From the NCBI RefSeq assembly GCF_051903065.1, contig NZ_CP178439.1: DNA of 64,000 nucleotides; one strand, 5' to 3'. The notes below the pieces were generated by a model that ran no database searches, was not told where the DNA came from, and saw only the letters and a program-made list of their open reading frames with translations. The position numbers were made by a program, and so were the translations under genes. Source of the DNA: Escherichia coli (GTDB taxonomy: Bacteria; Pseudomonadota; Gammaproteobacteria; Enterobacterales; Enterobacteriaceae). Below are positions 1-54,680 of this stretch, in pieces. Numbering within the stretch: position 1 is the first letter of the stretch; each line of letters starts with the position of its first letter.

Positions 1-876
1 ATGATTAAAAACAACGAGTTAATCCATCCTTTTGACGTAACCAGTAATGAATCAGGTAAGACTTATCAACTGACGCCTAACTCGTCCAAGTCGGTTCAGC
101 CCGTGGCCCTGTTGAGATTGAGTGTATTTACCCCTGTCGGCACAAAAGAAAACCGCGACCGAAACTTTGAAGTTGATGCCTCTGATGAGCTTTCGTGTAT
201 GGAAATTGCAAGATCGGAGGGTTATGACGACATCAAGATAACTGGTGTCAAACTATCTATGTCTACCGACTTTAAGTGCTGGCTCGGGATCATCATGGCT
301 TTCAGTAAATATGGTTTTACTTCCGAGAAGATTACCCTGACTTTTAACGAGTTTGCGAAGATGTGTGGTATCAGTTCAACAAACATCAACAAACGAACTC
401 GTGCGCGCTTTAAAGAGTCATTAATGAACCTTGCATCGGTAGTGCTTGCCTTCTCAGACTCTCGGAGTGGTCGGTTCACAGTAACGCATCTGGTGCAGAA
501 GGCTATGATTGATCCAAAAAGCGATACTGTTGAGTTGGTTGGGGATCCTTCTATGTGGGAACTGTATCGTTACGACCATAAGACATTGTTAAGCCTTCAG
601 GTTCTATACATTTTGGCTAAAAAAGAAGCTGCGCAATCTCTCTATATTTATTTTGAAGCAATGCCAGCTGGTACGTTGTTCGTTAATATGAAACGGTTGA
701 GGGAAAGGTTGCTTCTTACAACCCCTATTCGTACGCAAAACCAGATAATTCGTAAAGCAATGCGGGAACTTGAATCTATCGGATATCTCGATTATCAAGA
801 AGTTAAGAAAGGTCGCGACATACAATTTCAGATCTTCAAAAGAAGCCCTAAGCTGGCCCTCGCCAAACAAGGTTGA
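1..876 (+). CDS. repA: Plasmid replication initiator RepA (P1 RepA / RepFIB-like family)
   Basis: 291-aa ORF starting at window position 1; blocks VQPVALLRL, EGYDDIKITG, STDFKCWLG, KKEAAQSLY, IGYLD and KKGRD match P1-type RepA as I remember it; iteron-like repeats follow immediately downstream. Confidence 0.75.
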   Translation: MIKNNELIHPFDVTSNESGKTYQLTPNSSKSVQPVALLRLSVFTPVGTKENRDRNFEVDASDELSCMEIARSEGYDDIKITGVKLSMSTDFKCWLGIIMAFSKYGFTSEKITLTFNEFAKMCGISSTNINKRTRARFKESLMNLASVVLAFSDSRSGRFTVTHLVQKAMIDPKSDTVELVGDPSMWELYRYDHKTLLSLQVLYILAKKEAAQSLYIYFEAMPAGTLFVNMKRLRERLLLTTPIRTQNQIIRKAMRELESIGYLDYQEVKKGRDIQFQIFKRSPKLALAKQG

Positions 877-1104
877 AAGCTACCAGGTATGCACTGGTTA
901 TAACATGCTGAAAAATAAGTTATTTATCAGTGCTATGCTTAGTGCTTCTTTTACTACTGGTCTTACATCTCGGCTTAATGTGCAAAAAAGTAACTTTTCA
1001 AACGAACTCCTGACTATTCATCTGTATGCCTTTCTGACTCAAGCGTACATGCTAGCCCATTCATTAAATGCCGTGGAGCAAGATGGTTTCGTGCGCACTC
1101 TATT

Positions 1105-1605
1105 CACGTGAATGCCTTTTGTGGATTACGCCTCTTACATTCATACAAATGCTTTTGATGTCGGTATCCCAAAAAATCATTCATTGAAATGCTTTTGTTT
1201 GCCACTGTATCCCGAGCATAGCTATGCAGTGGTATAAAAAGGCATTTTGGTGAATGGCATTAGGTCGAATGACACACAGTACAGCTTTGTTAAGAGCGAG
1301 AATGGTCCAAGACATCTATGACATTGGGCATCAGAAGGACTATGTGTTTGATATGAGATCAAAAAAATATCAGAAGCATCACAACTCCAATGGCATTCAA
1401 AGAAATGCCTTTGTTTTGTTAGTACACCAAACAACCCAAAATTCATGCAGTTATATCAAAGACTCATTCGCAAAAGGACTCAGCCAGAAAGCATTTGCTT
1501 AAATAGCATTGGCCAAAAGCATTCGAATGAATGATGTTCATATGGACAAGACAAAGTCCCACTCACGCCCAGAGGTGTAAAAGGCATTTAGATGAATGAC
1601 GCACC
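1105..1605. repeat. Iteron-like short repeats downstream of repA (core AATGCCTTTTG / CAAAAGGCATT, both orientations, about 7 copies); incA-like copy-control candidate
   Basis: Copies read near 1108, 1145, 1184, 1246, 1389-1420, 1513 and 1577; the position after the rep gene parallels P1 incA. Confidence 0.45.
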
Positions 1606-2024
1606 GGCCGAGGATTGTATGTAGTTTCTCCAACTGATAGTTGCCGAACCAGGGAGCACAGTGATATGCGGCCTTCTCAGAATCAAGAGATAGATATTAA
1701 GGGAACAAAAAAGATTAGATATGAAGCTTAGTTACCTGCCCGATATCTAGTTAGAGCTTTTCAAACCATCAAAAGTGACTTTTATGCTTGAGGAGTCTCA
1801 TCAGCTTCAGGATTGAGCTTAACGTAATCTTACCCCCTCCCCTCTTTCAAACTTTTACTAAGCGTTCACTGGTACTTTTCAAAGATTATGCTTTAGGCCC
1901 CTTTGCTTAAAAATTCACCAATCGCTAAACGTTAAAAAAAGGGGGTTTATGCGAACGGAAGGATCGGAATAAAAAAGTATTATTCATTCGCGTTTACGTG
2001 AACTCAAATCTACACGGAGTAATT

Positions 2025-2378
2025 ATGGAACTTTCTTTAAATATTGGCCTTAGTGAAAAGAAATCTAACACGGCTGCACTTTTTAAAACAAAAAGCGCAA
2101 AAGTGATTTTGTTTGTTCTGCTGACCGTGCTTTTTTGCGGTCTGGCATATGCGGGTTCAGATGATGGGGCACTGGGAGATATTTGGTCATACATGAGTGA
2201 AAGTATGACTGGAGCTCCGGGCAAAATTCTGGCAGCCGCGATGTTGATCTCAAGCGTATATTTCTCTGTCCTTAAGCCTAACCCGGGCCTGGCACTGGTT
2301 TCATTATTCATGATGCTGGTAATGGCCAACGGCGAGAAAATTATCAGCACCTTTATGGATGCTGGCGTACCGCTGTAA
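2025..2378 (+). CDS. trhA: F-type conjugative propilin (TraA/TrhA-like)
   Basis: About 118 aa with a long leader ending AYA and a mature part with two hydrophobic segments; first gene of a traA-L-E-K-B-V-C-ordered operon; RBS GGAG before the ATG at 2025 (track ORF starts at 1998). Confidence 0.55.
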   Translation: MELSLNIGLSEKKSNTAALFKTKSAKVILFVLLTVLFCGLAYAGSDDGALGDIWSYMSESMTGAPGKILAAAMLISSVYFSVLKPNPGLALVSLFMMLVMANGEKIISTFMDAGVPL

Positions 2379-2428
2379 TTTATTGTTAATCATGCATGAG
2401 GGGGTTCATCCCCCTCTCTGGATTTTTA

Positions 2429-2746
2429 ATGAGTAAGCAGAACGACGTTCCTCAGCATACCTATAGATTCCCTTTCAGGATCAACATGCCTCTACTGATT
2501 TTGTTTTGGGATGCAAAAAAAATAGGGCTTGCATTCATTCTGGTTGCATTTGGGAATATCTTCGAATGCTTCGGGTTTTCTGTTGTAGCAGCGGTTGTAT
2601 ATTGGATTGCGTATAACAAAGCAGCTGAGTCAGGAATAAGAGGATTGCTAAAACACAGACTCTGGTGGCTCGGTTTTTTGCCAGGTAAAGCAGTTTTTAG
2701 TAGCCGTTATTTCAACGATCCATTTATCAGAGATTTGTATTCTTGA
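2429..2746 (+). CDS. trhL: TraL-like pilus assembly protein
   Basis: YRFPFRINMPLLILFWDA matches the TraL YRFP...FWD signature; small membrane protein; position after the pilin gene. Start taken at the internal Met (track ORF 2396). Confidence 0.6.
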   Translation: MSKQNDVPQHTYRFPFRINMPLLILFWDAKKIGLAFILVAFGNIFECFGFSVVAAVVYWIAYNKAAESGIRGLLKHRLWWLGFLPGKAVFSSRYFNDPFIRDLYS

Positions 2747-2757
2747 TGGAGCTATGA

Positions 2758-3546
2758 ATGAAAATGCTAAGTGGCATTAACATCCCTTTTTTCAAAAAAT
2801 CTAAAAAGGATGAAAACGGTGATCTTGAACAGTCATACGTAAAGAAAGATGAAAGTGCTAAGGGACGTTTTTTGGACATTAAAAAACGATTTAGCCCACA
2901 AGCTGAAGCGTCAGGTGCTGGAATTACATACAGCGCCCTGATTAATCGTGATACAAAACTTATCCGCATTAATACTGTTTCAATAGCCGTCATTGGGTTA
3001 TTGGTTGCAAAGATTCTTTTTTTCACTGACCCAGTGACGATTGTTACCCCTCCAAACATGAATGAAGAGATCACGGTTGTTGGTAACAAAGCATCGGAAT
3101 CTTATAAAACACAATGGGCTCTCTTTTTTAGTACCCTTTTAGGGAATATTAATCCAACTAATATTTCCTTTGTGACGGCCTATGTCCTCGATGCCCTTTC
3201 ACCTGAACTACAGGCTAAAACGAGTGAGTCTTTACAGGAGCAGATAAATATCATGCAGGCTCGTGGTGTTGAGCAGACCTTTAAGCCTAATGATATTTAC
3301 TTTGATCCAAAAAATGACATGGTCTATGTCTGGGGTACCAAAACGACTCGACTTGTAAATGTTCCGGACAAAACTGAATCATCGAAATGGACTTATGAAT
3401 GGGTTCTCGGGATGAAAAATGGTCGCCCAAGAATTGCATATGTAAATCAATATTCCGGAACACCGAATATTAAAAAAATTACGATAAACGGCAAAGAGCA
3501 ACTGGCAACGCTGGATAATCCGCCACCGTCTACAGGTAACAAGTGA
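2758..3546 (+). CDS. trhE: TraE-like (VirB8-like) mating-pair-formation protein
   Basis: 262 aa with an N-terminal transmembrane anchor (SIAVIGLLVAKILFF); operon position; GGAG RBS 6 nt upstream. Confidence 0.6.
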   Translation: MKMLSGINIPFFKKSKKDENGDLEQSYVKKDESAKGRFLDIKKRFSPQAEASGAGITYSALINRDTKLIRINTVSIAVIGLLVAKILFFTDPVTIVTPPNMNEEITVVGNKASESYKTQWALFFSTLLGNINPTNISFVTAYVLDALSPELQAKTSESLQEQINIMQARGVEQTFKPNDIYFDPKNDMVYVWGTKTTRLVNVPDKTESSKWTYEWVLGMKNGRPRIAYVNQYSGTPNIKKITINGKEQLATLDNPPPSTGNK

Positions 3547-4817
3547 TGATTAAAAAAAAGGGCTTAGGGTTCAACGCAATTACCGCATTGATCATGCTCA
3601 CGACTTCGAACTGCGTAATCGCTGAAGAATACCAATTGCCAGCAACAATTAATAACCCGGTTGTAATGCCAGTTGGTGCTGACGGATTTCAGAATGGAGC
3701 TGCAAAAGCCATTATTCCGGGTCAAGCTGGTTCTGAACAGTCAGGTGCACAAACAAACCTTAGTGAAGCCGGTAATGCGCAGGGACAAAAACCTACAACT
3801 GATCTCCCTACCGTGCAACTTTCCCCAGCCAGCAATGCTTCGCCTGCGGTAAGCGCTATTACTGGAGCATTATCAAATAATCCTAGTCTCCCCGGATTTG
3901 ACGCACAGACCCGCTCTGGTGCAATTGATAGCTATGGGAGACCAACAGGTACCTCTTCCCAGCAGAATGCAACCAATGCGACCGCCACGTCAAAAGCCGA
4001 TGAACTTTATGTCGAAGCTCGTAACCGATATAAAGAAGTTCAGCGTGTAAATGTGCCGCCTGGTGGGAATGTGGTACTGCCAGTTTCACGAGGACTTCAA
4101 AACAGAATATCGACCAGCTTCAAGAATGCTTCTGTCAGCACTTCTACCCCTGCTGAAGAGGCAAGCATATTTGTTAATGGTGGCGATGTCTTTATTTCAA
4201 CTAATACCGATAAACCAATCGGGATTATGTTGTCGGAAGATCAGGTACCTGAATCGACCTATAACCTGACCCTGGTACCGCTTGATGTTCCCGGTGCGAT
4301 GATTTCAGTTACTACATCTTTAAGCCCATCTATGCAAGCCAAACGTGAAACCTCATTGGATAAGCAAAACTATGAGGAAATGTTGGCCCGCTCCCAGTCA
4401 GAAGAACTGGCTCCATCGGATCCAAAACAAGACGATCATAAACAAAGAATCATTGATTTATTGACTCCTGTGGCTCTTGGTGAGGTCCCTTCAGGATTCA
4501 GTTTACAACAGGACCGACTTTCTCGTATTCCTGCGTCAGAGCAGTCCCCATGTAACTTTAATATGTATGCAAAGCTCGGTCAGAGACTGGTTGGCTCACG
4601 TGAACTTATTGATGTAATTCTTGTGAAAAACGATAAACCATACGGTCAAATCGTTGCTGATCAGCAGTGTATGGCAGAAGGCGTTATTGCAAGTGCTTTA
4701 TTTGATAAAGCATACCTGCAACCGGGAGAAGAAACAGAGCTTTACATAGTCCGGGATAAATTGTTCAAGGAACGCGAGGCCCGGGTTACAACCAGACCAA
4801 GTCTAATCAGAAAATAA
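3543..4817 (+). CDS. trhK: TraK-like secretin-type mating-pair-formation protein
   Basis: 424 aa with a signal peptide; operon position between traE-like and traB-like genes; start overlaps the trhE stop. Confidence 0.5.
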   Translation: MMIKKKGLGFNAITALIMLTTSNCVIAEEYQLPATINNPVVMPVGADGFQNGAAKAIIPGQAGSEQSGAQTNLSEAGNAQGQKPTTDLPTVQLSPASNASPAVSAITGALSNNPSLPGFDAQTRSGAIDSYGRPTGTSSQQNATNATATSKADELYVEARNRYKEVQRVNVPPGGNVVLPVSRGLQNRISTSFKNASVSTSTPAEEASIFVNGGDVFISTNTDKPIGIMLSEDQVPESTYNLTLVPLDVPGAMISVTTSLSPSMQAKRETSLDKQNYEEMLARSQSEELAPSDPKQDDHKQRIIDLLTPVALGEVPSGFSLQQDRLSRIPASEQSPCNFNMYAKLGQRLVGSRELIDVILVKNDKPYGQIVADQQCMAEGVIASALFDKAYLQPGEETELYIVRDKLFKEREARVTTRPSLIRK

Positions 4818-4938
4818 TATGGGAAAAGTTACTTTGCCTGCTCTGCTTGGGGCCACCGTGATTGGTTTTGTCGTATTTGCTTTAACCAGCTTTTACTACA
4901 GGTCAGAATATATACCAAAAAGGGGTAATGACTCCAAC

Positions 4939-5442
4939 TTATTGATAGTGTTTTATGTTCAGATAATGCCCGATGACTTTGTCATGCAGCTCCACCGATT
5001 TTGAGAACGACAGCGACTTCCGTCCCAGCCGTGCCAGGTGCTGCCTCAGATTCAGGTTATGCCGCTCAATTCGCTGCGTATATCGCTTGCTGATTACGTG
5101 CAGCTTTCCCTTCAGGCGGGATTCATACAGCGGCCAGCCATCCGTCATCCATATCACCACGTCAAAGGGTGACAGCAGGCTCATAAGACGCCCCAGCGTC
5201 GCCATAGTGCGTTCACCGAATACGTGCGCAACAACCGTCTTCCGGAGCCTGTCATACGCGTAAAACAGCCAGCGCTGGCGCGATTTAGCCCCGACATAGC
5301 CCCACTGTTCGTCCATTTCCGCGCAGACGATGACGTCACTGCCCGGCTGTATGCGCGAGGTTACCGACTGCGGCCTGAGTTTTTTAAGTGACGTAAAATC
5401 GTGTTGAGGCCAACGCCCATAATGCGGGCTGTTGCCCGGCAT
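4939..5442 (-). CDS. insB: IS1 InsB (normally made as an InsAB fusion by frameshifting)
   Basis: 167-aa [25 protein letters not shown] matches IS1 InsB as I remember it. Confidence 0.85.
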
Positions 5443-5636
5443 CCAACGCCATTCATGGCCATATCAATGATTTTCTGGTGCGTACCGGGTTGAGAAGCGG
5501 TGTAAGTGAACTGCAGTTGCCATGTTTTACGGCAGTGAGAGCAGAGATAGCGCTGATGTCCGGCGGTGCTTTTGCCGTTACGCACCACCCCGTCAGTAGC
5601 TGAACAGGAGGGACAGCTGATAGAAACAGAAGCCAC
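5361..5636 (-). CDS. insA: IS1 InsA
   Basis: 91-aa [42 protein letters not shown] matches IS1 InsA as I remember it. Confidence 0.9.
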
Positions 5637-6033
5637 TGGAGCACCTCAAAAACACCATCATACACTAAATCAGTAAGTTGGCAGCATCACCCAAAAAGGA
5701 GTGTATTAATCGTTCCGGACGCACCCATTAGTATCGAAGATGGCAGTAACGCTTTTCCCGTTCAGACAGTAATAATGAACGATCCAACTCTTATTGATAA
5801 ATTTGTAGGAGAGGACAATATTAATGAGGAGAATGCTTTTGACTATCACAAAAGTAACGTTTTGGAACCTAATTACAAACATGAAATATCTAGAACGAGC
5901 CAGATAGATAAAGCTGAAATGAATCATCCATCTGTTCGTGAAAACTGGGCCAGAGCAGGTGATCCCTATATCGTTCCTCAGATGTCTGACAGCGAACGAA
6001 ATCTAAAAATTAAACGATTCCAGAAACCTACAA

Positions 6034-7401
6034 GTGGAGCTAATCATGGACATTAAAAAGGCCTGGGAAAATAAGACCGTCAGACTTTCTGTTATTGGCG
6101 CTCTGCTGGTAGTGATTGTTTATATTATTAGCCAGTCTATTTTTTCCACACCAGTTAAGAAAGAAAAGAAAACACAGAAAAAAGACATGCAGACCAATTT
6201 GTTGTTAGATGATTCGCAAATGAACAAATTGAGTAATGAAGAAAGCCAGAAAGTATATAAGGAAATGGTTAAGCAAAACCGACTTGATCAAAATGCGGCG
6301 AAAGAGGACCGCGAAAAAGCAGAAAAAGCCCAACAGGAAACTAAAGCCCAAGTTGCAAGTTTAACTTCTCAACTTCAGCAGCTGTCTCAGCAAATTAATG
6401 ATATGCAGACTAATCGAAACGGCAATCGTAACTTGGATGCTGGTAGTTCGCGTAAAACGATTAATGAGCAGGCACCGGCAGCTCCTTATCAGCTTAATGC
6501 TAATGCGCCGATTAATGGCGTAAACCCTAATTACGCGTCTATCACACCTACGCGTAATAGCCCGATGAGAACAATCACACAAAGTTCCATTAAGACTAAT
6601 GGTACCGATGGTGTCATTCAGGTTATGCCCGTGTCTGAAAACAGAATCAAGGAAGGCAGAGAGGTCATTGCAGGAGATAAAGCGCCTACTCGGACTGTAC
6701 GAGGTGATGGTACTGCGCCAGTTGATAGCAAAGCGCGGCATGCTGCCCGAAAAGATGAAATGTTTCTTCCGGCAACATCTATTATCACTGGTGTTCTGAT
6801 TACCGGGCTTGAAGCGCCTACAAGCCTTTCTTCCAAATCAGAACCAATGCCAGTAACAATGCGTATTAAAAAAGATGTCATCATGCCCAATAATTTCACC
6901 ATGGATTTGCGTGACTGTAACCTTCTGGGTTCAGCTGTTGGTGATTTGGCGTCACAGCGTGCTTACATACGTGCCACTTCTATCTCTTGTGTTAATTCAA
7001 AAGGGAAAGCTTTTGACGTAAAACTGGAAGCATATGCTGTAAGTGAAAATGACGGAAAAAATGGGATCCGAGGCACGCTTATCAGCCGAAATGGTAACGC
7101 AATTGCAGGAGCTGCATTTGCCGGTGGACTTTCTTCACTTGCCGGTAGCTTAAGCCCCAGTAAGGTATCTTCACTTAACATCGACCCTAATTCACAGGCT
7201 CAGTATCAGTCCCCTAATTTTGGTGCACTTGGGGCATTAGCCGGGGCTGGTGCAGCTCAAGGTGGCCTTAATCGACTCGTCGATTACTACACCGCAATTG
7301 CAGAACAACAGTGGCCAATCGTAGAAATTAGCCCTGGCCGAGCTATTACATTTGTCGTTCAGACCGGAACTACAATTCCAACGAATCTGACCAGTCGCTG
7401 A
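6034..7401 (+). CDS. trhB: TraB-like (VirB10-like) mating-pair-formation protein
   Basis: 455 aa; N-terminal membrane anchor, coiled-coil Q-rich segment and Gly/Ala-rich C-terminal domain; operon position. Confidence 0.6.
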   Translation: MELIMDIKKAWENKTVRLSVIGALLVVIVYIISQSIFSTPVKKEKKTQKKDMQTNLLLDDSQMNKLSNEESQKVYKEMVKQNRLDQNAAKEDREKAEKAQQETKAQVASLTSQLQQLSQQINDMQTNRNGNRNLDAGSSRKTINEQAPAAPYQLNANAPINGVNPNYASITPTRNSPMRTITQSSIKTNGTDGVIQVMPVSENRIKEGREVIAGDKAPTRTVRGDGTAPVDSKARHAARKDEMFLPATSIITGVLITGLEAPTSLSSKSEPMPVTMRIKKDVIMPNNFTMDLRDCNLLGSAVGDLASQRAYIRATSISCVNSKGKAFDVKLEAYAVSENDGKNGIRGTLISRNGNAIAGAAFAGGLSSLAGSLSPSKVSSLNIDPNSQAQYQSPNFGALGALAGAGAAQGGLNRLVDYYTAIAEQQWPIVEISPGRAITFVVQTGTTIPTNLTSR

Positions 7402-7408
7402 GGTTTAA

Positions 7409-7891
7409 ATGGATAGTTTAGAAAAAAAAGAATCGACTGAATCAGCTGGACCTGAAATCACTAAAAAAATGGTGCGAGAAAGGACAACAAAAAAAATTAC
7501 CTTCGAAATTGATATTGAAAAAATATTGAAGTATTTATTTTTCTTCGCCTTTGCCGTTTTGGTCATTATTTATGGTTATAAAGGCTTTATGAATGTTTAC
7601 GATTACTTCAATAAACAATCACAGCCTTCGTACAAGATTGCAGTGCTTGACATGCCTGAATTACGTAAGGAATTTTTCAAGCATCACGAAGGCCGTACTG
7701 CTGACAATGATAGAACTCAATTCGAAGAATATTTCAGAACATTAATGAAGATCTACCGTGACCGTGGCTATTTAATTATTGATGCAACGCTTGCCGTTAC
7801 TGTACCGGATAGTGTTGAAATCGTCACTTATATGGAACTTGAAGATAGCTCTGAAGCGGTACAATCAAGTTCTTATAATGCAAAGAAGTAG
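7409..7891 (+). CDS. Hypothetical membrane protein inside the transfer operon
   Basis: 160-aa ORF with a transmembrane helix (LKYLFFFAFAVLVIIYGY), tightly spaced after trhB. Confidence 0.5.
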   Translation: MDSLEKKESTESAGPEITKKMVRERTTKKITFEIDIEKILKYLFFFAFAVLVIIYGYKGFMNVYDYFNKQSQPSYKIAVLDMPELRKEFFKHHEGRTADNDRTQFEEYFRTLMKIYRDRGYLIIDATLAVTVPDSVEIVTYMELEDSSEAVQSSSYNAKK

Positions 7892-7904
7892 AGGGCACCC
7901 AATA

Positions 7905-8762
7905 GTGAAAAAGTTACTTTTCCCTTTAATGGCGGCTTTCGCCATTATGGCGAATACGGTCACTTATGCTTCAGAGCAGGTCCTAACTAATAGTGATGCT
8001 GCTGCGTTAATGGCAAAGGCAAAGGAAGGCGGCGTTTCACCCAGTCAGATCTCGGGTGCGTTATCAAAAATGAAAGGATATAAACCTAAGGATGCCATAT
8101 ACATTCCTTCTGGTGGGCTATACCTCTTTCAGGACGAGCGTTCGCAGCTAATGGCAGTAACGACCGATGGCCGATACTCCCTTACTGGGGGAAGCCTTGT
8201 TGATGTAATTAAACGTAAACCTGTTCTGACTGTAGAAGAAATCAGAAATTCCTATTTTATTAGTCTTGATGAGGCCCCCTTCCCTCTGGAAACTGTAGCG
8301 TCCATTCATCTGGGAAATTCAAAGCTTAAGAGACAAGCAGCCATTTTCTTAACACTTGATTGTGACGGTTGCATGGAACTTGTTAAGAAATTTTATGCAG
8401 ATCGGGACAAGTATCGGATAGATATTGTTTTAGTTCCCTCACCCGGTGAGCCAAAAGAAGAGCTTAGAAGGCTCTGGTGTAGTAAAGAAAAAGGAAAAAT
8501 AAACAACCTCGATATTCTTCGTTGGCTAATGGGAAGCAAATCCGACATTGAAAAAAGATTGCTCTCTCAAAAAGAAGCAGAAGAATGTCCGGCGGAACCT
8601 TTGGTAGCGTCATTGATGCTCGCAGGAATTTATAAATTGCAGGGTGTACCTTCAGTTGTCAGACAGGATGGTTTGGCTGGTAATGGCATTCCAAAAGATT
8701 TCGACTACTGGTTGAACCAAAGCGTTGAACCTCTCTTAAAAAATCCATTTGAGACAAATTAA
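7905..8762 (+). CDS. Periplasmic thioredoxin-fold protein with CxxC (CDGC) motif, DsbC/TrbB-like
   Basis: GTG start after RBS GAGGG; signal peptide KKLLFPLMAAFAIMANTVTYA; CDGC motif; F-type systems carry DsbC-like TrbB proteins. Confidence 0.5.
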   Translation: MKKLLFPLMAAFAIMANTVTYASEQVLTNSDAAALMAKAKEGGVSPSQISGALSKMKGYKPKDAIYIPSGGLYLFQDERSQLMAVTTDGRYSLTGGSLVDVIKRKPVLTVEEIRNSYFISLDEAPFPLETVASIHLGNSKLKRQAAIFLTLDCDGCMELVKKFYADRDKYRIDIVLVPSPGEPKEELRRLWCSKEKGKINNLDILRWLMGSKSDIEKRLLSQKEAEECPAEPLVASLMLAGIYKLQGVPSVVRQDGLAGNGIPKDFDYWLNQSVEPLLKNPFETN

Positions 8763-8771
8763 GGCTAGTTT

Positions 8772-9722
8772 ATGAACATCAAAAGATTGGTACTCAGTGC
8801 TCTGGTTGTAGGTACATCCTCATATCTTACGGGGTGCTCCATCGGGAGTTCCGAATCCGAATGTCCAGGCATTGAAAAGGGCGTTATCTGTAAAGGTCCT
8901 CGCGAAGTTATGGAGTTAACTAATAATCGAGATGATCTGTCTGCACTTGCGGGGGAAGAGTCGGAATCGGGAAAGGAGAAATCGGCTGTCAATGACAGCC
9001 GTTATCCAACTGAAATTAGCCCTCCAGGGGAAGTCAAATATCCACAGTCTACAACCCTTAAAAATCAGCCTGTGGCTTATTCAAAAACCGAAATTAAGCC
9101 AGTTGGTCAGTTACCTGTCATGTACGATAAAACTTTAAAAATGGGTGCCCCTACTTCATCCATTGGACCACGGCCTATTTCTGGTGTACCGGTTAATTCA
9201 AACGTAAGGATGACTAGCAGTTATAGCACTGCCTCTTCAGCTGGTAACCCTTTCGTTCATCCGGCTGCGGAAGTCGTTAAACAAACAAGCTATCCGGTTT
9301 CTGCTGGAAATGCACCACGCTACGTTGCACCTAATTCTGATATCAGCCCTGGCAAGGATATGTACTCTCTTTACAATGGCCAGCCCGTTAACCCTACTCT
9401 CAACACTGGGCAGATCCAGCAATACCGTTCGCAAGGTTATAAACAAGCTGTAGTGGCTCCTGAACCACTTGCTGTTCTGCAACAGGGGAAAGTAATGAGA
9501 ATTACTTTTGCACCTTATACCGATGATAACGATGCGCTTAATCTTCCCGGCTACGTTTATGTCAACGTAAAACCGCAAACATGGATTGCTGGCAAGAATT
9601 CGACCTCAAACCCAGCTCGCATAGTTCCTTTAGAAGTACAGGATGCGGCCCGGGAAAATATGCAGCAGCAACAAAAAGCAACTAAAGCTGTCTCTTCGAA
9701 CGGCATTGTTAGACAACTGTAA
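8772..9722 (+). CDS. trhV: TraV-like outer-membrane lipoprotein
   Basis: Lipobox LTGC followed by a Cys-containing stretch; 316 aa; sits just before the traC-like gene. Confidence 0.55.
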   Translation: MNIKRLVLSALVVGTSSYLTGCSIGSSESECPGIEKGVICKGPREVMELTNNRDDLSALAGEESESGKEKSAVNDSRYPTEISPPGEVKYPQSTTLKNQPVAYSKTEIKPVGQLPVMYDKTLKMGAPTSSIGPRPISGVPVNSNVRMTSSYSTASSAGNPFVHPAAEVVKQTSYPVSAGNAPRYVAPNSDISPGKDMYSLYNGQPVNPTLNTGQIQQYRSQGYKQAVVAPEPLAVLQQGKVMRITFAPYTDDNDALNLPGYVYVNVKPQTWIAGKNSTSNPARIVPLEVQDAARENMQQQQKATKAVSSNGIVRQL

Positions 9723-9730
9723 GGTCAAAT

Positions 9731-12412
9731 ATGGAAGCTATCAATAATTACAATAGCGGTTTAAATCGCCATCAATTAGGTGGGTTTATCCCTGTTTACG
9801 ATCAATTAGCAGGGACTCACTATTTTTTGATTGATGGCAACAGATTAGGGTTTATGTTTATCTGTAATCCATCACCTGGAGTTTTTGATAATCAGCAAGA
9901 TGTTCTTGCTGAAATGTTCAAAATGGATTTTCCTACAGATACTGTCTGTCAAATATCTCTGACTGCATTGCCAGACTTGACTTTACAGCTTAGTGCTTGG
10001 TCAGCTGTGCGAGGTGGGCGTATGACTGGGAACGATAAGCTTAAAGCAGATCTGCTTAATGGTTATCAGTTGGACTACTACGACAGAAGTATGCATAAGC
10101 CTTTAAAACCTGATCATGATAACCTTATGTTGAGGGATTTTCAGGTATGGATCTCGCTATCGATTCCTTTACAGTCTGCCCTTCCTACCGAGCTGGAACA
10201 TTCGCGTATCGATTCACTTTACTCTGAACTTGTAAGTAAGTTAATTACGATTGGACTGCATCCGTTTAAGGTCGATGCAGAAAACTGGCTCTATTGTATA
10301 GATAAGGTCGTAAACCCCGGAAAGAACTCTCGGTGGGCTGAAGGTTTTATAGACGTTAACACTATGAAAAGGCTTAATGAACAAGTTAACGTTCCCGGCC
10401 GAAAGTATACAGTCACAGAAAATCATTTCTCATCAGTCACACAAAGTGACGACGAATCTGAGCATCGTTACTTCAAACAACTTTCCGTTGTAAAGTTTCC
10501 TGAATACGTCAATTTCGGTTGTATGTATGAGTTAGTAGTTAACTGGATGCATGGACGTAAGACAATTTTCAGCCCATTTATGATCACTCAGACTGTTCAG
10601 TTTGCCGATCCGCTCAAGTTGTCAAAAGAAAACGTCCGCTACAAAGCAATCACTAATAAACAGGCAAGTATACCTTCAGTTGTCACATTCTGCCCTCGCC
10701 TGCGGGATATGGATAATGACTACATGGCCGTAACTCGCGAGCTTGAGGATGGCGCAAAGCTTTTAAGAGGGTATCTTACTTTCACTGTTATGGGTAGTAA
10801 TGCCAATTCTGTGCAGACAGCAGCTAACGATCTCAAATCCTTTTACCTCGAAAGCCGGGTCAAAGTAGCAGATGATTCCTTTATCGTTTTCCCGTCATTT
10901 ATGTCATGTCTGCCAATGTGCAATGACCCAAAGACAATTTTCGACCTTGACCGTTCCGAAGTAGTGAGCAACACCGGAGCGGCTCATATGACGCCGATCT
11001 TTGGGCCCTGGAAAGGTAATACAGATAGACCAGTACTGAGTTTAGTTTCTCGTGAAGGTCAACTCATGGGACTTGATATTTTCAAGACTTCTGCAAGCTA
11101 TAACATGGTTATTGGTGCAACGTCAGGTGCAGGCAAGTCATTCTGGACAGCATATCTAATCAATAACTATCTTGGAGCTGGACCGCGATCTAATAACCTC
11201 GTTCATTATCGCTCAACATTTAAGCATTTTTTAGAAAACGAATACCCAGATGATGATCCTGATGGTGCTCAAGTTTTTGTAGTGGACGTGGGGCGTTCTT
11301 ACCAGGGGATTGCGGAACAATATACAAACAGTCAATTTATTGATTTCGGTAAAACCCCTGACTTCACCCTAAATCCCTTTGCCTTCCTAACTGACATCAC
11401 TGTTAACGACGATGTATTTAACGAAGCACCTGAATTTACCGGTGAATCAACTTCAAACGATGCAGAAAAAGACAAAGTTGCTCAGACCATAATGGTTCTG
11501 AATCAGCTAAAAATTATGGCTTCAGAGAAAGGCCTTATCGATGATTATCAACAATCAGTGATGCTTCAGCTTATTGCAGAAGAGTACCAGGAATCCAGAA
11601 AATCAGGTCGGACCGGTTCAATAACCGGCTTTGCTCTGCGTTGCAAGAAGCATGAAGACAAACGTATAAAGGATATTGGGGAGCAACTCGGAGCATGGTG
11701 CGAAGGTGGAATTTATGGGCACCGGTTTACCGATACGTTGCCTCCAATCAACTTCGACAGCAGATTTATTGTTTTGGAACTGGAGGAGCTAAAAGGCACC
11801 CCCCACCTTCAGACAGTTGTTTTAATGTCTATCATTCAGGCTGCTCAGCATGCAATGTTCATCAAAAAAGATGGGCGTCGTCGCTTGTTCATCCTAGATG
11901 AAGCTTGGGAGTACATTCGTCCTGATAATTCATCAGGTGCCGGAAATCAATCAAACCAATTCTTCTCTTCCTTCCTCGAAGCGGCATGGCGTAGGTTCAG
12001 GAAAACAAACTGCGCTGGCATCTGTATCACACAGTCGTTTGAAGATTATTTTACTTCTTCTGTTGGCCGGGCCCTGACTGCTAACTCGCCTTGGAAGATA
12101 ATCATGAAACAAGAAAAAGAAAGCATTGAAGCAATGAAGGCTAATAAATATTTTTCTACTTCAGATGCAGAATATGAACGAATGAAAAATATTCGTACAG
12201 TCAAAAAGGTGTTTTCAGAGATGTTAGTCAGGTTCGAAAACTTCCAAGAGATCTGTCGGTTATACGTAGACCGGAAAATGGAGCTTTGTTTTACTACGGA
12301 TAGTGCTGACAGGAGTAAATTATGGGAAATTCAAAGCCGCGAGAATTGTAGCTATGGCGAGGCAATAGAAATTCTCTATGCTCAAGAAGTAGCAGCGGGT
12401 TTGGCCGCGTAG
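9731..12412 (+). CDS. trhC: TraC-like (VirB4 family) conjugative ATPase
   Basis: 893 aa; Walker A GATSGAGKS; Walker B-like LFILDEAWE; size and position typical of F-type TraC. Confidence 0.85.
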   Translation: MEAINNYNSGLNRHQLGGFIPVYDQLAGTHYFLIDGNRLGFMFICNPSPGVFDNQQDVLAEMFKMDFPTDTVCQISLTALPDLTLQLSAWSAVRGGRMTGNDKLKADLLNGYQLDYYDRSMHKPLKPDHDNLMLRDFQVWISLSIPLQSALPTELEHSRIDSLYSELVSKLITIGLHPFKVDAENWLYCIDKVVNPGKNSRWAEGFIDVNTMKRLNEQVNVPGRKYTVTENHFSSVTQSDDESEHRYFKQLSVVKFPEYVNFGCMYELVVNWMHGRKTIFSPFMITQTVQFADPLKLSKENVRYKAITNKQASIPSVVTFCPRLRDMDNDYMAVTRELEDGAKLLRGYLTFTVMGSNANSVQTAANDLKSFYLESRVKVADDSFIVFPSFMSCLPMCNDPKTIFDLDRSEVVSNTGAAHMTPIFGPWKGNTDRPVLSLVSREGQLMGLDIFKTSASYNMVIGATSGAGKSFWTAYLINNYLGAGPRSNNLVHYRSTFKHFLENEYPDDDPDGAQVFVVDVGRSYQGIAEQYTNSQFIDFGKTPDFTLNPFAFLTDITVNDDVFNEAPEFTGESTSNDAEKDKVAQTIMVLNQLKIMASEKGLIDDYQQSVMLQLIAEEYQESRKSGRTGSITGFALRCKKHEDKRIKDIGEQLGAWCEGGIYGHRFTDTLPPINFDSRFIVLELEELKGTPHLQTVVLMSIIQAAQHAMFIKKDGRRRLFILDEAWEYIRPDNSSGAGNQSNQFFSSFLEAAWRRFRKTNCAGICITQSFEDYFTSSVGRALTANSPWKIIMKQEKESIEAMKANKYFSTSDAEYERMKNIRTVKKVFSEMLVRFENFQEICRLYVDRKMELCFTTDSADRSKLWEIQSRENCSYGEAIEILYAQEVAAGLAA

Positions 12413-12442
12413 AGTAAATATCTTCAAGCAAAAACAATTAAA

Positions 12443-12471
12443 CCAGATGTCTCATAAGAATCTGGTTTTTT
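12443..12471 (+). terminator. Hairpin plus T-run after trhC
   Basis: CCAGATgtctcataagaATCTGG followed by TTTTTT. Confidence 0.5.
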
Positions 12472-12829
12472 ATTGTATGCCTTAAGTAAACAAATGAGGT
12501 TATGACTTAATGAGTTCATCACTGTGCTGCAAATTTTGGTTTTATAATTAATATGGCTTAAAAACAGTGACATAATTACAAATCGCATTTAGGTTGTGTA
12601 CGCATTAAGTAAACAAAATTTATAACATCAATACTGACTTTATAAGATGAAATTCACGTAAATTACATTTTTGTTTACCAAAGGTAATCAAAGGAGCGCG
12701 GCATTATTAGTGAAAACAGATCACTGGTGTCATATTGCATACAAAACTTAATATCCTTTAATCATTCTTCTAAAAGTTTAATATTAACGCTTTGGTTTAT
12801 GAAAATTTATCCAATTTGCTCACCGAAGA

Positions 12830-15800
12830 CTTTTAACTTATTTAACCCCCTTTATCGCCAATCTGTGATTTTCTAATGTTAGCCTACAGTTCTAGGGCCC
12901 TTGCTCCCATGATGCGAATCCTTCCACCTAATAAAGATTAACGCCTCATTCCTGTATGCCGGTCTTACGACGCCAGTGCTCGGGCTATTTTCGGTCCTAA
13001 CAAGACCTGGCGAGAGATTTAATCAGGGCGTGGTGTGACTGAGCAGCAGCTGGGGCACTGTTATCCGCTTGCAGATTTAACCCCCTTAATCGCCAAACTG
13101 GGGTACTGTCCTGATGCTGGCCTTCAGTTCTGGGCTGGGTGGCTATCACTTCCTCCCATAATGCGAAATGTAACTGCTGATACAGATTAACGTCATATTC
13201 CTGCGTGCCGGTCTGCCAACACCAGTGCACGGGCTTTTTTCGGTCATCACATTACCGGGCAGGAGATTTTATCAGGGCGTGGTGTGACTGAGCAGAAGCT
13301 GGGGCACTGTCAGCAGCTTGCAGATTTAACCCCCTTAATCGCCACACTGGGATTCTGGTCTGATATTGACCTTCCGTTCTGGGCGGGGTTCGGTTTGCTA
13401 ACACTTACTCCCATGATACGAAATGTGCCTGCTGATACAGATTAAAATCACATTACTGCATACCGGTCTGCCGACACCGGTGCATGGGCGATTTCCGACG
13501 ATCTCAAGAACATATGGGAGATTATATCAGGGAGAGTAGTATGCCTGAGCAGCATCTGAAGGCACTGTCAGCCGCTGTCAGATTTAACCCCCTTAATCGC
13601 CAAACTGGTGTTCTGTCCTCATGCAGGCCTTCAGTTCTGAGCTGGGTTGCTATCACTTGCTCCCATAATGCGAAATGTACCTGCTGATACAAATTAACGT
13701 CGTATTCCTGTATGCCGGTCTGCCGACACCAGTGCTCGGGCTATTTTCGGTCCTAACAAGACCTGGCGAGAGATTTAATCAGGGCGTGGTGTGACTGAGC
13801 AGCAGCTGGGGCACTGTTATCCGCTTGCAGATTTAACCCCCTTAATCGCCAAACTGGGGTACTGTCCTGATGCTGGCCTTCAGTTCTGGGCTGGGTGGCT
13901 ATCACTTCCTCCCATAATGCGAAATGTAACTGCTGATACAGATTAACGTCATATTCCTGCGTGCCGGTCTGCCAACACCAGTGCACGGGCTTTTTTCGGT
14001 CATCACATTACCGGGCAGGAGATTTTATCAGGGCGTGGTGTGACTGAGCAGAAGCTGGGGCACTGTCAGCAGCTTGCAGATTTAACCCCCTTAATCGCCA
14101 CACTGGGATTCTGGTCTGATATTGACCTTCCGTTCTGGGCGGGGTTCGGTTTGCTAACACTTACTCCCATGATACGAAATGTGCCTGCTGATACAGATTA
14201 AAATCACATTACTGCATACCGGTCTGCCGACACCGGTGCATGGGCGATTTCCGACGATCTCAAGAACATATGGGAGATTATATCAGGGAGAGTAGTATGC
14301 CTGAGCAGCATCTGAAGGCACTGTCAGCCGCTGTCAGATTTAACCCCCTTAATCGCCAAACTGGTGTTCTGTCCTCATGCAGGCCTTCAGTTCTGAGCTG
14401 GGTTGCTATCACTTGCTCCCATAATGCGAAATGTACCTGCTGATACAAATTAACGTCGTATTCCTGTATGCCGGTCTGCCGACACCAGTGCTCGGGCTAT
14501 TTTCGGTCCTAACAAGACCTGGCGAGAGATTTAATCAGGGCGTGGTGTGACTGAGCAGCAGCTGGGGCACTGTTATCCGCTTGCAGATTTAACCCCCTTA
14601 ATCGCCACACTGGGGTTCAGTCCTGATAGTGTCCTTCCGTCCTGGGCTCGGTTGCTAACACTTGCTCCCATTGCGCCTGCTGATACAGATTAAAGTCACA
14701 TTACTGCATACCGATCTGCCGACTCCGGTGCATGGCTTTTTCCGATAATCACAAGGACGGACGGGTGATTTTATCTTTGCATAGTATGTCTGAGCAGCAT
14801 CAGAAGGCTCTGTCAGCCACTGGCAGATTTAACCCCCTTAATCTCCAAACTGGGATCAGTCCTGATAGTGTCCTTCCGTCCTGGGCAGGGTTGCTAACAC
14901 TTGCTCCCATGATACGAAATGCGCCAGCTGATACAGATTAACGTCTCATTACTCCATGCCGGTCTGCCGAAACTGGTGCATAGCTTTTTTCGATATTCGC
15001 ATGAACAGACGCTTGATTTTTTCAGGTTGTAATATACCTGAGCAGCATCTGAAGGCACTTTCAGTCTCTGTCAGATTTAACCCCCTTAATCGCCAATCTG
15101 GGATTTTCTGATGTTAACCTACAGTTCAAGGCCCTTGCTCCCATGATGCGAACCTTGCAACCTGATAAAGATTTAAGCCTCATTCCTGTATGCCGGTCTT
15201 ACGACTCTAGTGCACGGGGACTATTTTCGGTCATAATAAGACCTGGCGGGAGATTTAATCAGGCGTGGTGTGACTGAGCAGAAGCTGGGGCACTGTCAGC
15301 CGCTGGCAGATTAAAACCCTTTATTCGCCATCTCAAGACGTCATTATGGGTAGTCCTTTTAACTTTCTAAGGACCATTAAGCTTAAACTCCGTTTAGAGA
15401 ATGACGTAAGATTTAGGCTAAGCAGGTTAAGTGATCCCCGCTCCCGGGTTGAACACTTTATTCATCGTACGAGCGAAAGATTGTCCTTCGGGAAATATTT
15501 CTTATACACCGCTCGGGCACTTACAGCCACTGGCGGATTTAACCCCCTTAATCGCCAAACTGGGGTACTGTCCTGATGCTGGCCTTCAGTTCTGGGCTGG
15601 GTGGCTATCACTTGCTCCCCTAATGCGAAATGTGTCTGTTGATACAGATTAACGTCATTTTCCTGCGTGCCGGTCTGCCGACACCAGTGCACGGCCTTTT
15701 TTCGGTCATTACATTACCGGGCAGGAGATTTTATCAGGGCGTGGTGTTACTGAGCAGGAGCTGGGGCACTATCAGCAGCTTGCATATTTAACTCCCTTAA

Positions 15801-16410
15801 TCGCCAAACTGGTGTTCTGTCCTCATGCTGGCCTTCAGTTCTGGGCTGGGTTGCTATCTCTTGCTCCCATAATGCGAAATGTATCTGCTGATACAGATTA
15901 ACGTCATATTCCTGTATGCCGGTCTGCCGACACCAGTGCTTGGGCTATTTTCGGTCATAACAAGACCTGGCGAGAGATTTACTCAGGGCGTGGTGTGACT
16001 GAGCAGCAGCTGGGGCACTGTCATCCGCTTGCAAATTTAACCCCCTTAATCGCCAAACTTGGGTTTTGTCCTGATGCTGGCCTTCCGTTCTGGGCGGGGT
16101 TGCTATCACTTGCTCCCATCATGCGAAAAGTGCCTGCTGATACAGATTAACGTCATATTCCTTCATGCCGGTCTGCCGACACAAATGCACGGGCTTTTTT
16201 CGGTCCTTACAATACCGGGCAGGAGATTTAATCAGGGCGTGGTGTGACTGAGCAGCAGCTAGGACACTGTCAGCCGCTGGCAGATTTAACCCCCTTAATC
16301 GCCACACTGGGGTTGCCTCCTGAAGTTGGGTTTCAGTTCTGGGCTAGGTTGCTAACTCTGCTCCCATAATTCGTAGTGGGCCTACTCAAGAGATTAACAC
16401 CTCATATCTT
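12830..16410. repeat. Tandem array of about 15 units of about 249 bp, including a near-identical 756-bp (three-unit) duplication
   Basis: Anchor CAGATTTAACCCCCTTAATCGCCA recurs at about 12836, 13072, 13321, 13579, 13828, 14077, 14335, 14584, 14824, 15072, 15306, 15534, 15782, 16032 and 16281; track ORF pairs 12997..13230 / 13753..13986 and 13484..13687 / 14240..14443 are identical. Confidence 0.9.
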
Positions 16411-16711
16411 TAGACTGGACTGACGACAACGATTCACAGTTAGGAAACGTAAATCAGCACACCGGTGAGATAGATTTTAGGGTCTAAGCAAGAAATAGGG
16501 TAGGCGTGAAGATTCATTAATGGAGCTCATAACGTCAAAGCGTAGAGAAGTCGACAAGAATCGTGGTTTAAAAAGAATGAGCATTAGGTATGGACTAGAG
16601 AGTCTGAGCTCTCATCTGCAAGTTAAGCTCACAAAAAATCATAAAAAAGTAAACAAACATTAGCTTAGGATTGAAACAAAGGATAGAATTGTACGTATAA
16701 CAATGAAATGG

Positions 16712-16749
16712 ACGCATTATGCGTAAAGTTTACATATATGCGTAAAAGT
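16712..16749. promoter_or_regulatory. Palindrome ACGCATTATGCGT and nearby ATGCGTAAA half-site upstream of parA; candidate operator
   Basis: Perfect 13-bp palindrome about 55 bp before the parA start; type I ParA proteins with N-terminal extensions autoregulate at such sites. Confidence 0.3.
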
Positions 16750-16777
16750 CGGTTTTCAGTGCAAAAAGGTCATAACC

Positions 16778-19032: not shown

Positions 19033-19037
19033 ATATT

Positions 19038-19062
19038 GAACTGCATCTTTATGATGCAGTTC
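19038..19062. terminator. Hairpin between the convergent parB and the minus-strand operon
   Basis: GAACTGCATCtttatGATGCAGTTC inverted repeat. Confidence 0.35.
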
Positions 19063-19093
19063 ATATGATTTATATTTTTAATTTCTTGTTATA

Positions 19094-22795: not shown

Positions 22796-23992
<1,197 letters not shown>

Positions 23993-54414: not shown

Positions 54415-54680
54415 ACGTATCTCTCGAAAGTAATGACCGATACAGAGTAACTGATCGCACATTACTAATAACTGAAGCTTTTGACGATTTTCGTAACGCG
54501 TCTCAATGATCCTTTTGCTTCAGTCCAAAAAAGTAACTTTGGTTGGCTGAAGACACTTGTCTATGACAATGTAAAATCTGTCGCTGGCATCTTCTTTTAG
54601 CTTAACCAAATTTTTATCTAACCCAGTGGGGAAGTCGCTTCCCTTCTGGGGCACTTCCTCTCAAATTCGAGGTAGTGTAT

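What the first reader, a model, noticed from the sequence alone, without database searches (positions are those of the whole stretch)
4819..6056. IS1 inserted inside the transfer operon, splitting a small membrane-protein gene
IS1 lies between trhK and trhB with a direct repeat CCAAAAAGG on both sides, so it is a simple transposition. Removing it rebuilds an in-frame 156-aa ORF (N-terminal transmembrane helix) whose stop overlaps the trhB start. The insertion, transcribed opposite to the operon, could be polar on trhB, trhV and trhC and so affect transfer.
Basis: seen in the sequence. Interest (0 to 1): 0.55.

Follow-up and report, generated by a model that had tools for sequence, protein, structure and literature searches.

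The report
IS1 insertion disrupting plasmid gene htdO
An ordinary, intact IS1 insertion sequence has jumped into htdO, a small accessory membrane-protein gene in the pilus/mating operon of a well-known IncHI2 multidrug-resistance plasmid. It probably weakens or abolishes plasmid transfer, but it is a routine kind of event.

Summary
A complete 768-bp IS1, 100% identical to copies annotated IS1A, lies at 4924-5691 on the minus strand, between trhK and trhB. IS-free relatives carry one copy of the target, and their flanks are 100% identical to the window.

Two details need correcting.
- The true target duplication is 8 bp (CAAAAAGG).
- The ancestral gene is 153 aa, not 156. The 156 figure results from keeping both repeat copies.

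The split gene is htdO. It matches NCBIfam NF041317 at 213 bits against a cut-off of 150. It is continuous in 1400 of 1402 PLSDB plasmids that carry it, including IncHI1 relatives at about 41-44% identity. The insertion falls after codon 35, just past the single N-terminal membrane helix, so it is a null allele.

Apart from this IS1, a second IS (IS903-like) and 3 SNPs, the window is identical to Salmonella plasmid pR18.0877_278k. This junction was not found in PLSDB, in complete E. coli genomes, or in GTDB representative genomes.

Polarity on trhB, htdT, trhV and trhC is expected from classical IS1 behaviour but was not testable here.

Verdict: real, correctly interpreted and ordinary. Low interest.

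The parts
3546..4817 (+). trhK (F-type secretin TraK homologue), intact, immediately upstream of htdO
   Evidence: ORF. Annotated as 'type-F conjugative transfer system secretin TraK' at identical coordinates in NZ_CP037959.1. Window 1-4923 is 100% identical to that record.
4819..4923 (+). htdO 5' fragment, codons 1-35, comprising the transmembrane helix plus YIPKR. In situ it reads on into IS1 to a stop at 5002-5004, giving a 61-aa fusion product.
   Evidence: Hydropathy. Helix at residues 6-29.
4916..4923 (.). left copy of the 8-bp target-site duplication CAAAAAGG
   Evidence: single copy in the IS-free relative.
4924..5691 (-). complete IS1 (IS1A-type), 768 bp. IRR is at 4924-4946 and IRL at 5669-5691.
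   Evidence: 100% identical over 768 bp to copies annotated 'IS1-like element IS1A family transposase'.
5361..5636 (-). insA (91 aa, intact). The IS1 pIRL promoter-like site lies at 5684-5657.
4939..5442 (-). insB reading frame (intact). The A6C frameshift motif TTAAAAAACTC lies at about 5379-5385, so InsAB' transposase can be made.
   Evidence: NF033558 transpos_IS1. (motif at IS1 position 307; open insB frame).
5692..5699 (.). right copy of the 8-bp target-site duplication CAAAAAGG
5700..6056 (+). htdO 3' fragment (codons 36-153 plus stop). It carries the conserved motifs DPTLxxKFVG and W-x-[KR]-AG-x-PY[IV]VPQ...ER-x-LK[IV]KR. An internal ATG at 5775 leaves a 93-aa ORF.
6046..7401 (+). trhB (TraB/TrbI-like), intact. 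Its start overlaps the htdO stop by 11 nt, with GGAG 6 nt upstream.
7409..12412 (+). remaining distal genes of the operon: 160-aa ORF (7409-7891), htdT (8010-8762), trhV (8772-9722) and trhC (9731-12412). All are intact and 100% identical to relatives.

Best explanation
Shown. One intact, potentially still active IS1A copy transposed by simple insertion into htdO. htdO is the small gene between trhK and trhB in the Tra2 'AC' operon, whose gene order is trhA-trhL-trhE-trhK-htdO-trhB-orf-htdT-trhV-trhC. The host is an IncHI2/IncHI2A plasmid of the pR18.0877_278k lineage. The insertion lies after codon 35 and duplicated 8 bp of target. It separates HtdO's N-terminal membrane anchor from the 118-residue extramembrane region that carries all the conserved motifs. 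The result is a null allele: a 61-aa fusion peptide plus an orphan 3' fragment. The event is recent and private, because the rest of the 64-kb window is almost base-for-base identical to IS-free sister plasmids.

Inferred. Operon transcripts now enter IS1 antisense, and translation stops 79 nt inside the element. About 1 kb of untranslated RNA then precedes trhB. Classical Rho-dependent IS1 polarity, together with loss of any htdO-trhB translational coupling, should sharply lower TrhB, HtdT, TrhV and TrhC. Some of these are essential mating-pair-formation proteins, so the plasmid is predicted to be transfer-deficient or strongly impaired.
For: Structure of the insertion.
- IS1 boundaries, inverted repeats and the 8-bp duplication.
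- Empty site with 100% identical flanks.
- IS1 is 100% identical to IS1A copies, with insA, the insB frame and the A6C motif intact.

Identity of the split gene.
- HtdO equivalog NF041317, 213 bits against a cut-off of 150, covering 1-153 of 153.
- Annotated htdO of 153 aa in relatives.
- Continuous ORF in 1400 of 1402 plasmids.
- Conserved synteny and the 11-nt overlap with trhB in IncHI1A and IncHI1B.
- Conserved C-terminal motifs lie downstream of the insertion point.

Recency.
- Window 1-4923 and 5700-20776 have 0 mismatches to NZ_CP037959.1. Only 3 SNPs occur over about 62 kb.
- The junction is absent from 72,556 plasmids, from 5,426 complete E. coli genomes and from GTDB representative genomes.

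Operon context and polarity.
- In R27, htdO, trhB, htdT and trhV are assigned to the AC operon, with expression decaying from proximal to distal genes (PMC7366339).
- The promoter scan found no site on the + strand inside IS1 or at the IS1/htdO junction.
- C-rich, G-poor stretches occur on the operon-sense RNA at 5614-5727.
- IS1 polarity in both orientations and its Rho dependence are classical knowledge from the gal and lac insertion mutants. This is my recollection and was not retrieved here.
Against: No expression or mating data exist for this plasmid.

As I recall Lawley et al. 2003 (J Bacteriol 185:581; not retrievable here), htdO is not among the 11 essential Tra2 mating-pair-formation genes. 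Loss of HtdO itself may therefore have little effect, and the predicted phenotype rests entirely on polarity.

IS1 ends can form fusion promoters with flanking DNA (Prentki 1986, cited in PMC9330008). By eye there is a weak candidate: TTGGCA at 5678-5683, an 18-nt spacer, then TGTATT. A chance-level promoter-like site also lies at 5794-5822, upstream of trhB.

Internal promoters are documented in the sister AN operon of R27 (PMC7366339). Residual expression of the distal genes therefore cannot be excluded.
Confidence: 0.85

Rival explanations
1. The insertion is real but nearly silent. HtdO is dispensable, and enough transcription reads through IS1 or re-initiates to keep trhB-trhC expressed. 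Re-initiation could come from an IS1-flank fusion promoter or from an internal promoter before trhB or htdT. The plasmid would then still conjugate at a normal or modestly reduced frequency.
For: htdO carries an 'htd' name rather than a 'trh' name, and I recall it is not among the essential Tra2 genes (Lawley 2003). Other natural htdO lesions exist: an IS903-like insertion 14 bp away in CP100971.1, and an A5-to-A4 frameshift in SRR31699742 whose neighbouring genes are intact. IS1 can create fusion promoters (PMC9330008). Internal promoters exist in the R27 AN operon. trhB has its own GGAG ribosome-binding site.
Against: No promoter-like site at the IS1/htdO junction meets the scan criteria. 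The only + strand hit, at 5794-5822, is at chance level (2 found against 2.8 expected). IS1 is classically strongly polar in both orientations. htdO is kept intact in 1400 of 1402 plasmids and conserved down to about 41% identity, which argues that it is not neutral.
Confidence: 0.3
2. Recurrent, selected inactivation. The AT-rich start of htdO would be a preferred 'safe' site at which IS insertion or frameshift shuts down the distal half of the pilus operon. That would lower the cost of conjugation or exposure to pilus-specific phage in established host lineages.
For: There are three independent kinds of lesion within about 20 bp. They are IS1 at the CAAAAAGG target (this window), an IS903-like element with duplication GTATTAATC 14 bp downstream in CP100971.1, and loss of one A in the same A5 run in several assemblies. 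The 30 bp around the site are 77% A+T, against 57% for the operon.
Against: Only a handful of cases were seen, against more than 1,400 intact copies. Several of the A4 assemblies show fragmented neighbouring genes typical of long-read homopolymer errors. Other genes of the operon are also hit by IS elements in other plasmids: IS100 in trhB in NZ_CP051311.1, and IS1/IS3 near trhE in CP056986.1. This looks like general decay rather than a hotspot. No statistics could be computed.
Confidence: 0.07
3. Assembly artefact, or the product of an IS1-mediated rearrangement (cointegrate, inversion or deletion) rather than a simple insertion.
For: IS1 is multicopy in enterobacterial hosts, with a median of 11 places per E. 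coli genome, so misplacement in assemblies can happen.
Against: A perfect 8-bp target duplication flanks a full-length element. Both flanks are colinear with, and 100% identical to, IS-free relatives for tens of kb. Rearrangement products would lack matching duplications and colinearity. There is only one IS1 copy in the window.
Confidence: 0.03

Closest known systems
IS1A (IS1 family insertion sequence of E. coli K-12 and many plasmids)
   Same: It is 768 bp and 100% identical to annotated IS1A copies. It has 23-bp imperfect terminal inverted repeats, insA, an insB frame with the A6C -1 frameshift motif, and an 8-bp target duplication in an AT-rich target.
   Different: Nothing in the element itself differs. 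Only the insertion site is not seen elsewhere in the collections searched.
htdO of IncHI plasmids (R27 R0030; NCBIfam NF041317; Pfam PF28168)
   Same: The reconstructed 153-aa product is identical to WP_000521240.1-type HtdO of IncHI2 plasmids. The position between trhK and trhB is the same, as is the 11-nt overlap with trhB.
   Different: Here the gene is interrupted after codon 35. The function of the family is itself uncharacterised. The family is tiny, with 16 representatives at 50% clustering among 1.84 billion. Outside the transmembrane helix it is predicted to be mostly disordered.
Classical polar IS1 insertions in operons (gal, lac) and IS-inactivated tra operons of resistance plasmids
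   Same: An IS lies inside a polycistronic operon, upstream of essential distal genes. Sister IncHI2 plasmids give comparable cases: IS100 in trhB in NZ_CP051311.1, an IS903-like element in htdO in CP100971.1, and IS1/IS3 near trhE in CP056986.1.
   Different: Polarity was not measured here. The disrupted gene is an accessory gene rather than an essential one.
pR18.0877_278k (CP037959.1), IncHI2-IncHI2A MDR plasmid of Salmonella Goldcoast, Taiwan
   Same: It is identical to the window over record positions 1-62158, apart from two IS insertions and 3 SNPs.
   Different: It lacks the IS1 in htdO and the IS903-like element at window 53358-54414.

Membership tests
IS1 family (IS1A isoform) | Length of about 768 bp with about 23-bp imperfect terminal inverted repeats beginning GGT | tested here: met
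   4924-5691 is 768 bp. The ends are GGTAATGACTCCAACTTATTGAT and GGTGATGCTGCCAACTTACTGAT, matching at 18 of 23 positions.
IS1 family (IS1A isoform) | insA followed by insB' in the -1 frame, with the A6C slippery motif | tested here: met
   insA is 91 aa. The motif TTAAAAAACTC is at IS1 position 307. The insB frame is open. Both halves hit NF033558 transpos_IS1.
IS1 family (IS1A isoform) | 8- or 9-bp target-site duplication | tested here: met
   The 8-bp CAAAAAGG is on both sides and present as a single copy in the empty site. The 8/9-bp rule is from PMC12428005.
IS1 family (IS1A isoform) | Near-identity to reference IS1A | tested here: met
   100% identity over 768 bp to many copies annotated IS1A.
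HtdO (NCBIfam NF041317 equivalog) | Whole-protein score above the curated cut-off | tested here: met
   The reconstructed 153-aa product scores 213 bits against a cut-off of 150, with E = 2e-63 and coverage 1-153 of 153. Pfam-A as installed lacks PF28168, but precomputed hits list PF28168:HtdO on the 93-aa fragment.
HtdO (NCBIfam NF041317 equivalog) | Position between trhK and trhB in an IncHI-type Tra2 operon, as one continuous ORF | tested here: met
   It is continuous in 1400 of 1402 records.
HtdO (NCBIfam NF041317 equivalog) | Role in plasmid transfer | not testable with these tools
   There is only co-regulation with the AC operon in R27 (PMC7366339). The mutational data of Lawley 2003 could not be retrieved.
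IncHI2 plasmid backbone | RepHI2 replicon plus the trh/htd Tra2 gene order, with near-identity to typed IncHI2A plasmids | tested here: met
   The window starts with the RepB-family rep gene at 1-876. The gene order is trhA-L-E-K-htdO-B-orf-htdT-V-C. It is 100% identical to plasmids typed IncHI2A/MOBH/MPF_F.
Polar IS insertion (functional class) | Reduced expression of the distal genes of the same transcription unit | not testable with these tools
   This needs RT-qPCR, RNA-seq or mating assays. Only context is available.

The most novel reading that the evidence does not exclude
The AT-rich 5' end of htdO could be a recurrent, selectable 'off-switch' site for IncHI conjugation. Independent IS1 and IS903 insertions and A-run frameshifts within about 20 bp would polar-silence the distal pilus genes while leaving essential coding sequences intact, and so potentially recoverable by excision.
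Probability: 0.07. Interest if true: 0.35.

Novelty: new member of a known kind. Interest (0 to 1): 0.1.

Why it matters
The practical relevance is modest. The plasmid belongs to a clinically important IncHI2 multidrug-resistance lineage in Salmonella, described as carrying blaCTX-M-55 and ramAp (PMC10714929). An IS1 in the middle of the mating-pair-formation operon probably makes this copy a poor conjugative donor. That affects predictions of spread, because typing tools such as MOB-suite would still be expected to call it conjugative. The htdO::IS1 junction is also a convenient clonal marker for this sub-lineage. Nothing here challenges current understanding of IS1, of IncHI transfer, or of operon polarity.

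Tried and rejected
- Same junction elsewhere. I ran 140-bp junction queries against PLSDB and complete E. coli genomes. I ran a 38-nt exact pattern against GTDB representative genomes. I also looked up the exact 61-aa fusion peptide. None gave a hit.
- Lookup of the 93-aa 3' ORF. It returned no IS1-bearing contig among the 10 places shown. It did reveal other htdO lesions.
- Pfam-A scan of HtdO. Only a spurious COX14 hit (E = 0.4) came back, because the installed Pfam lacks the new HtdO family.
- PDB sequence search with an HtdO profile. Nothing below E = 0.2.
- AlphaFold2 on an 11-sequence alignment. Mean pLDDT was 57 and pTM 0.22, and only the transmembrane helix was confident. I therefore ran no fold search, which would have been meaningless.
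- Literature. Lawley 2003 (Tra2 mutagenesis) could not be fetched. Searches for IS1 polarity and terminator papers gave nothing directly usable. Both points are therefore marked as recollection.
- Outward or fusion promoter at the IS1 right end. The scan found none. A by-eye candidate TTGGCA-18-TGTATT lacks the key A2 of the -10 hexamer, so I rejected it as evidence.
- Intrinsic terminator inside IS1 in the operon direction. The one terminator-like hit on the + strand, at 5551-5565, is a weak stem at chance frequency. I did not rely on it.
- Composite transposon or rearrangement. Rejected, because there is a single IS1 in the window and the flanks are colinear.
Full report
**1. What is in the sequence**

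Reading 4500-6400 and slicing it by script shows a 768-bp element at 4924-5691. Its left end is GGTAATGACTCCAACTTATTGAT. The reverse complement of its right end is GGTGATGCTGCCAACTTACTGAT. These are the two imperfect 23-bp inverted repeats of IS1, matching at 18 of 23 positions. Each end occurs once in the 64-kb window, with none expected by chance.

The element is 100% identical over its full length to many chromosomal and plasmid copies annotated 'IS1-like element IS1A family transposase'. On the minus strand it has:
- an intact 91-aa insA;
- the TTAAAAAACTC frameshift motif;
- an open insB frame.

Both halves hit NCBIfam NF033558. IS1's own pIRL promoter-like site is seen at 5684-5657. The element is therefore complete, and as far as sequence can tell it is still mobile. 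It is transcribed opposite to the trh genes.

**2. Target duplication and empty site**

Base 5691, however, is IS1's own terminal C: the sequence reads ...GCATCACC|CAAAAAGG, with three C's rather than four. With canonical ends the duplication is therefore 8 bp (CAAAAAGG, at 4916-4923 and 5692-5699). IS1 is known to make 8- or 9-bp duplications (PMC12428005).

Aligning both flanks to the IS-free plasmid NZ_CP027411.1 shows one copy of the target and 100% identity on both sides. This is a textbook simple insertion.

**3. The split gene**

Deleting IS1 plus one repeat copy (776 bp) gives a 462-nt ORF encoding 153 aa.

The 153-aa product is the curated family HtdO (NF041317, 213 bits against a cut-off of 150, full-length match). 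It is annotated 'plasmid transfer protein HtdO', 153 aa, between trhK and trhB in IS-free relatives.

A tblastn search of 72,556 plasmids finds the gene in 1402 records, and 1400 of them have it as one continuous stretch. Of those, 1118 are at least 95% identical, and 281 are below 60% identity. Sampled low-identity hits are typed IncHI1A and IncHI1B, while the sampled high-identity relatives are typed IncHI2A. In IncHI1A and IncHI1B plasmids it is a single 146-aa ORF in the same position, with the same 11-nt overlap with trhB.

Features of the protein:
- It has one N-terminal transmembrane helix. The Kyte-Doolittle maximum is 2.30 at residues 4-22, and AlphaFold2 predicts a helix at residues 6-29 with high confidence.
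- The rest is predicted to be largely disordered. It nonetheless carries conserved linear motifs: DPTLxxKFVG, and a C-terminal W-x-[KR]-AG-x-PY[IV]VPQ...ER-x-LK[IV]KR.
- The family is very small, with 16 representatives at E of 1e-3 or better among 1.84 billion.
- It has no relative of solved structure by sequence.

IS1 sits exactly after codon 35 (...Y-I-P-K-R|). This leaves a 61-aa peptide, made of the transmembrane anchor plus 26 IS1-encoded residues with a stop at 5002-5004, and cuts off every conserved extramembrane motif. It is a null allele.

**4. Context**

The window begins at the RepHI2 initiator gene (1-876). It then runs trhA, trhL, trhE, trhK, htdO::IS1, trhB (ATG at 6046), a 160-aa ORF, htdT, trhV and trhC.

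The window is base-for-base identical to NZ_CP037959.1, which is pR18.0877_278k from Salmonella Goldcoast in Taiwan, typed IncHI2A/MOBH/MPF_F. The identity covers record positions 1-62158, with these exceptions:
- this IS1 plus 8 bp;
- a second insertion, an IS903-like element at 53358-54414 with a 9-bp duplication;
- three SNPs.

That plasmid lineage is a known multidrug-resistance vehicle (PMC10714929). The htdO::IS1 junction was not found in PLSDB, in 5,426 complete E. coli genomes, or in GTDB representative genomes. It is therefore a recent, private event.

**5. How it most likely acts**

In R27, htdO, trhB, htdT and trhV are assigned to the AC operon, and expression falls from proximal to distal genes (PMC7366339). 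Here, ribosomes translating htdO stop 79 nt into IS1. About 1 kb of untranslated RNA follows before trhB.

IS1 is classically strongly polar in both orientations, through Rho. This is established knowledge that I recall from the gal and lac insertion mutants, and I could not retrieve the primary papers. The operon-sense RNA has C-rich, G-poor stretches at 5614-5727. No promoter-like site meeting the scan's criteria lies on the + strand inside IS1 or at its junction. The conserved 11-nt overlap between htdO and trhB suggests translational coupling, which the insertion would also break.

The most likely consequence is a strong reduction of TrhB, HtdT, TrhV and TrhC, and hence of H-pilus assembly and transfer. 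This step is inferred, not shown.

**6. Rivals**

(a) *A near-silent insertion.* As I recall Lawley et al. 2003, htdO is not one of the essential Tra2 genes. IS1 can form fusion promoters (PMC9330008). Internal promoters exist in the sister AN operon. A chance-level promoter-like site lies at 5794-5822. I give this about 0.3.

(b) *A selected hotspot or 'switch'.* An IS903-like element sits 14 bp away in CP100971.1. The same A5 run is A4 in several assemblies, including one whose neighbouring genes are otherwise intact. The 30 bp around the site are 77% A+T. Against this, intact copies outnumber lesions by hundreds to one. Several of the frameshifted assemblies look error-prone. Other tra genes are also hit by IS elements in sister plasmids. 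I give this about 0.07.

(c) *Assembly artefact or rearrangement.* The perfect duplication and colinear flanks make this very unlikely, about 0.03.

**7. Comparison with the known, and verdict**

Every component is a known, routinely annotated entity: IS1A, htdO and the IncHI2 Tra2 operon. IS inactivation of a tra operon is also commonplace. Only this particular allele is not seen in the collections searched, so I file it as a new member of a known kind.

Two numbers need correcting: the duplication is 8 bp rather than 9, and the protein is 153 aa rather than 156. The gene should also be named htdO.

Interest is low (0.1). The finding is useful mainly as a lineage marker and as a caution that a plasmid typed 'conjugative' may be transfer-impaired.

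Noticed in passing
window 53349-54423: There is a second private IS insertion: an IS903-like element of the IS5 family, 1057 bp, at 53358-54414. Its transposase ORF is at 53390-54358 on the + strand, and its inverted repeats begin GGCTTTGTTGAATAAATCG. It has a 9-bp duplication, ACGTATCTC. It splits a conserved hypothetical gene (WP_000472043.1, 312 aa in relatives). The insertion is absent from the IS-free relatives fetched and aligned (NZ_CP093412.1 and NZ_CP037959.1).
   Followed up: partly
window 1-64000: Apart from the two IS insertions, the window differs from NZ_CP037959.1 (pR18.0877_278k, Salmonella Goldcoast, Taiwan) by only three SNPs, at 38392, 39328 and 52235. The window starts at the same origin (the repHI2 gene) as many deposited IncHI2 records.
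   Followed up: yes
window 12900-15330 and 15511-16370: Two non-coding arrays of 249-bp tandem repeats lie between trhC and parA, with 9.8 copies at 76% match and 3.5 copies at 86% match. No ORF of 80 aa or more lies in this 4.4-kb stretch. The arrays are part of the conserved backbone. A possible partition or incompatibility role was not examined.
   Followed up: no
L012 (CP100971.1) 1860-2935: Another IncHI2 plasmid carries an IS903-like element inside htdO, with duplication GTATTAATC, only 14 bp downstream of the IS1 target seen here.
   Followed up: partly
L005 (Logan SRR31699742) 2921-2926, and L006-L010, L014: The A5 run that forms the IS1 target is A4 in these assemblies, which frameshifts htdO after codon 34. 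In L005 the neighbouring genes are intact, so this may be a real allele. The other assemblies show fragmented neighbouring genes and may be homopolymer errors.
   Followed up: partly
reconstructed HtdO (window 4819-4923 + 5700-6056): HtdO is an uncharacterised family that in the plasmid collection was found mainly in IncHI-typed records. It has only 16 representatives at 50% clustering among 1.84 billion proteins. It has one transmembrane helix, a mostly low-confidence or disordered remainder, and a strongly conserved C-terminal motif, W-x-[KR]-AG-x-PY[IV]VPQ...ER-x-LK[IV]KR. This suggests a partner-binding peptide. Two long proteins (P0008 of 1906 aa and P0016 of 2389 aa) hit parts of it repeatedly and were not examined.
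   Followed up: partly
window 22943-23923 and 62907-64000: ISKpn26 (IS5-like) lies between parM and htdA, and IS100 (istA/istB) lies at the window's end. Both are shared with the sister plasmids, so they are older insertions.
   Followed up: no
L003 (NZ_CP051311.1) 4100-6500; L002 (CP056986.1) 1300-4200: Sister IncHI2 plasmids carry other IS elements in the same operon: IS100 inside trhB, and an IS3-family transposase between trhL and trhK, where trhE would lie. The tra operon therefore decays by IS insertion at several sites.
   Followed up: no
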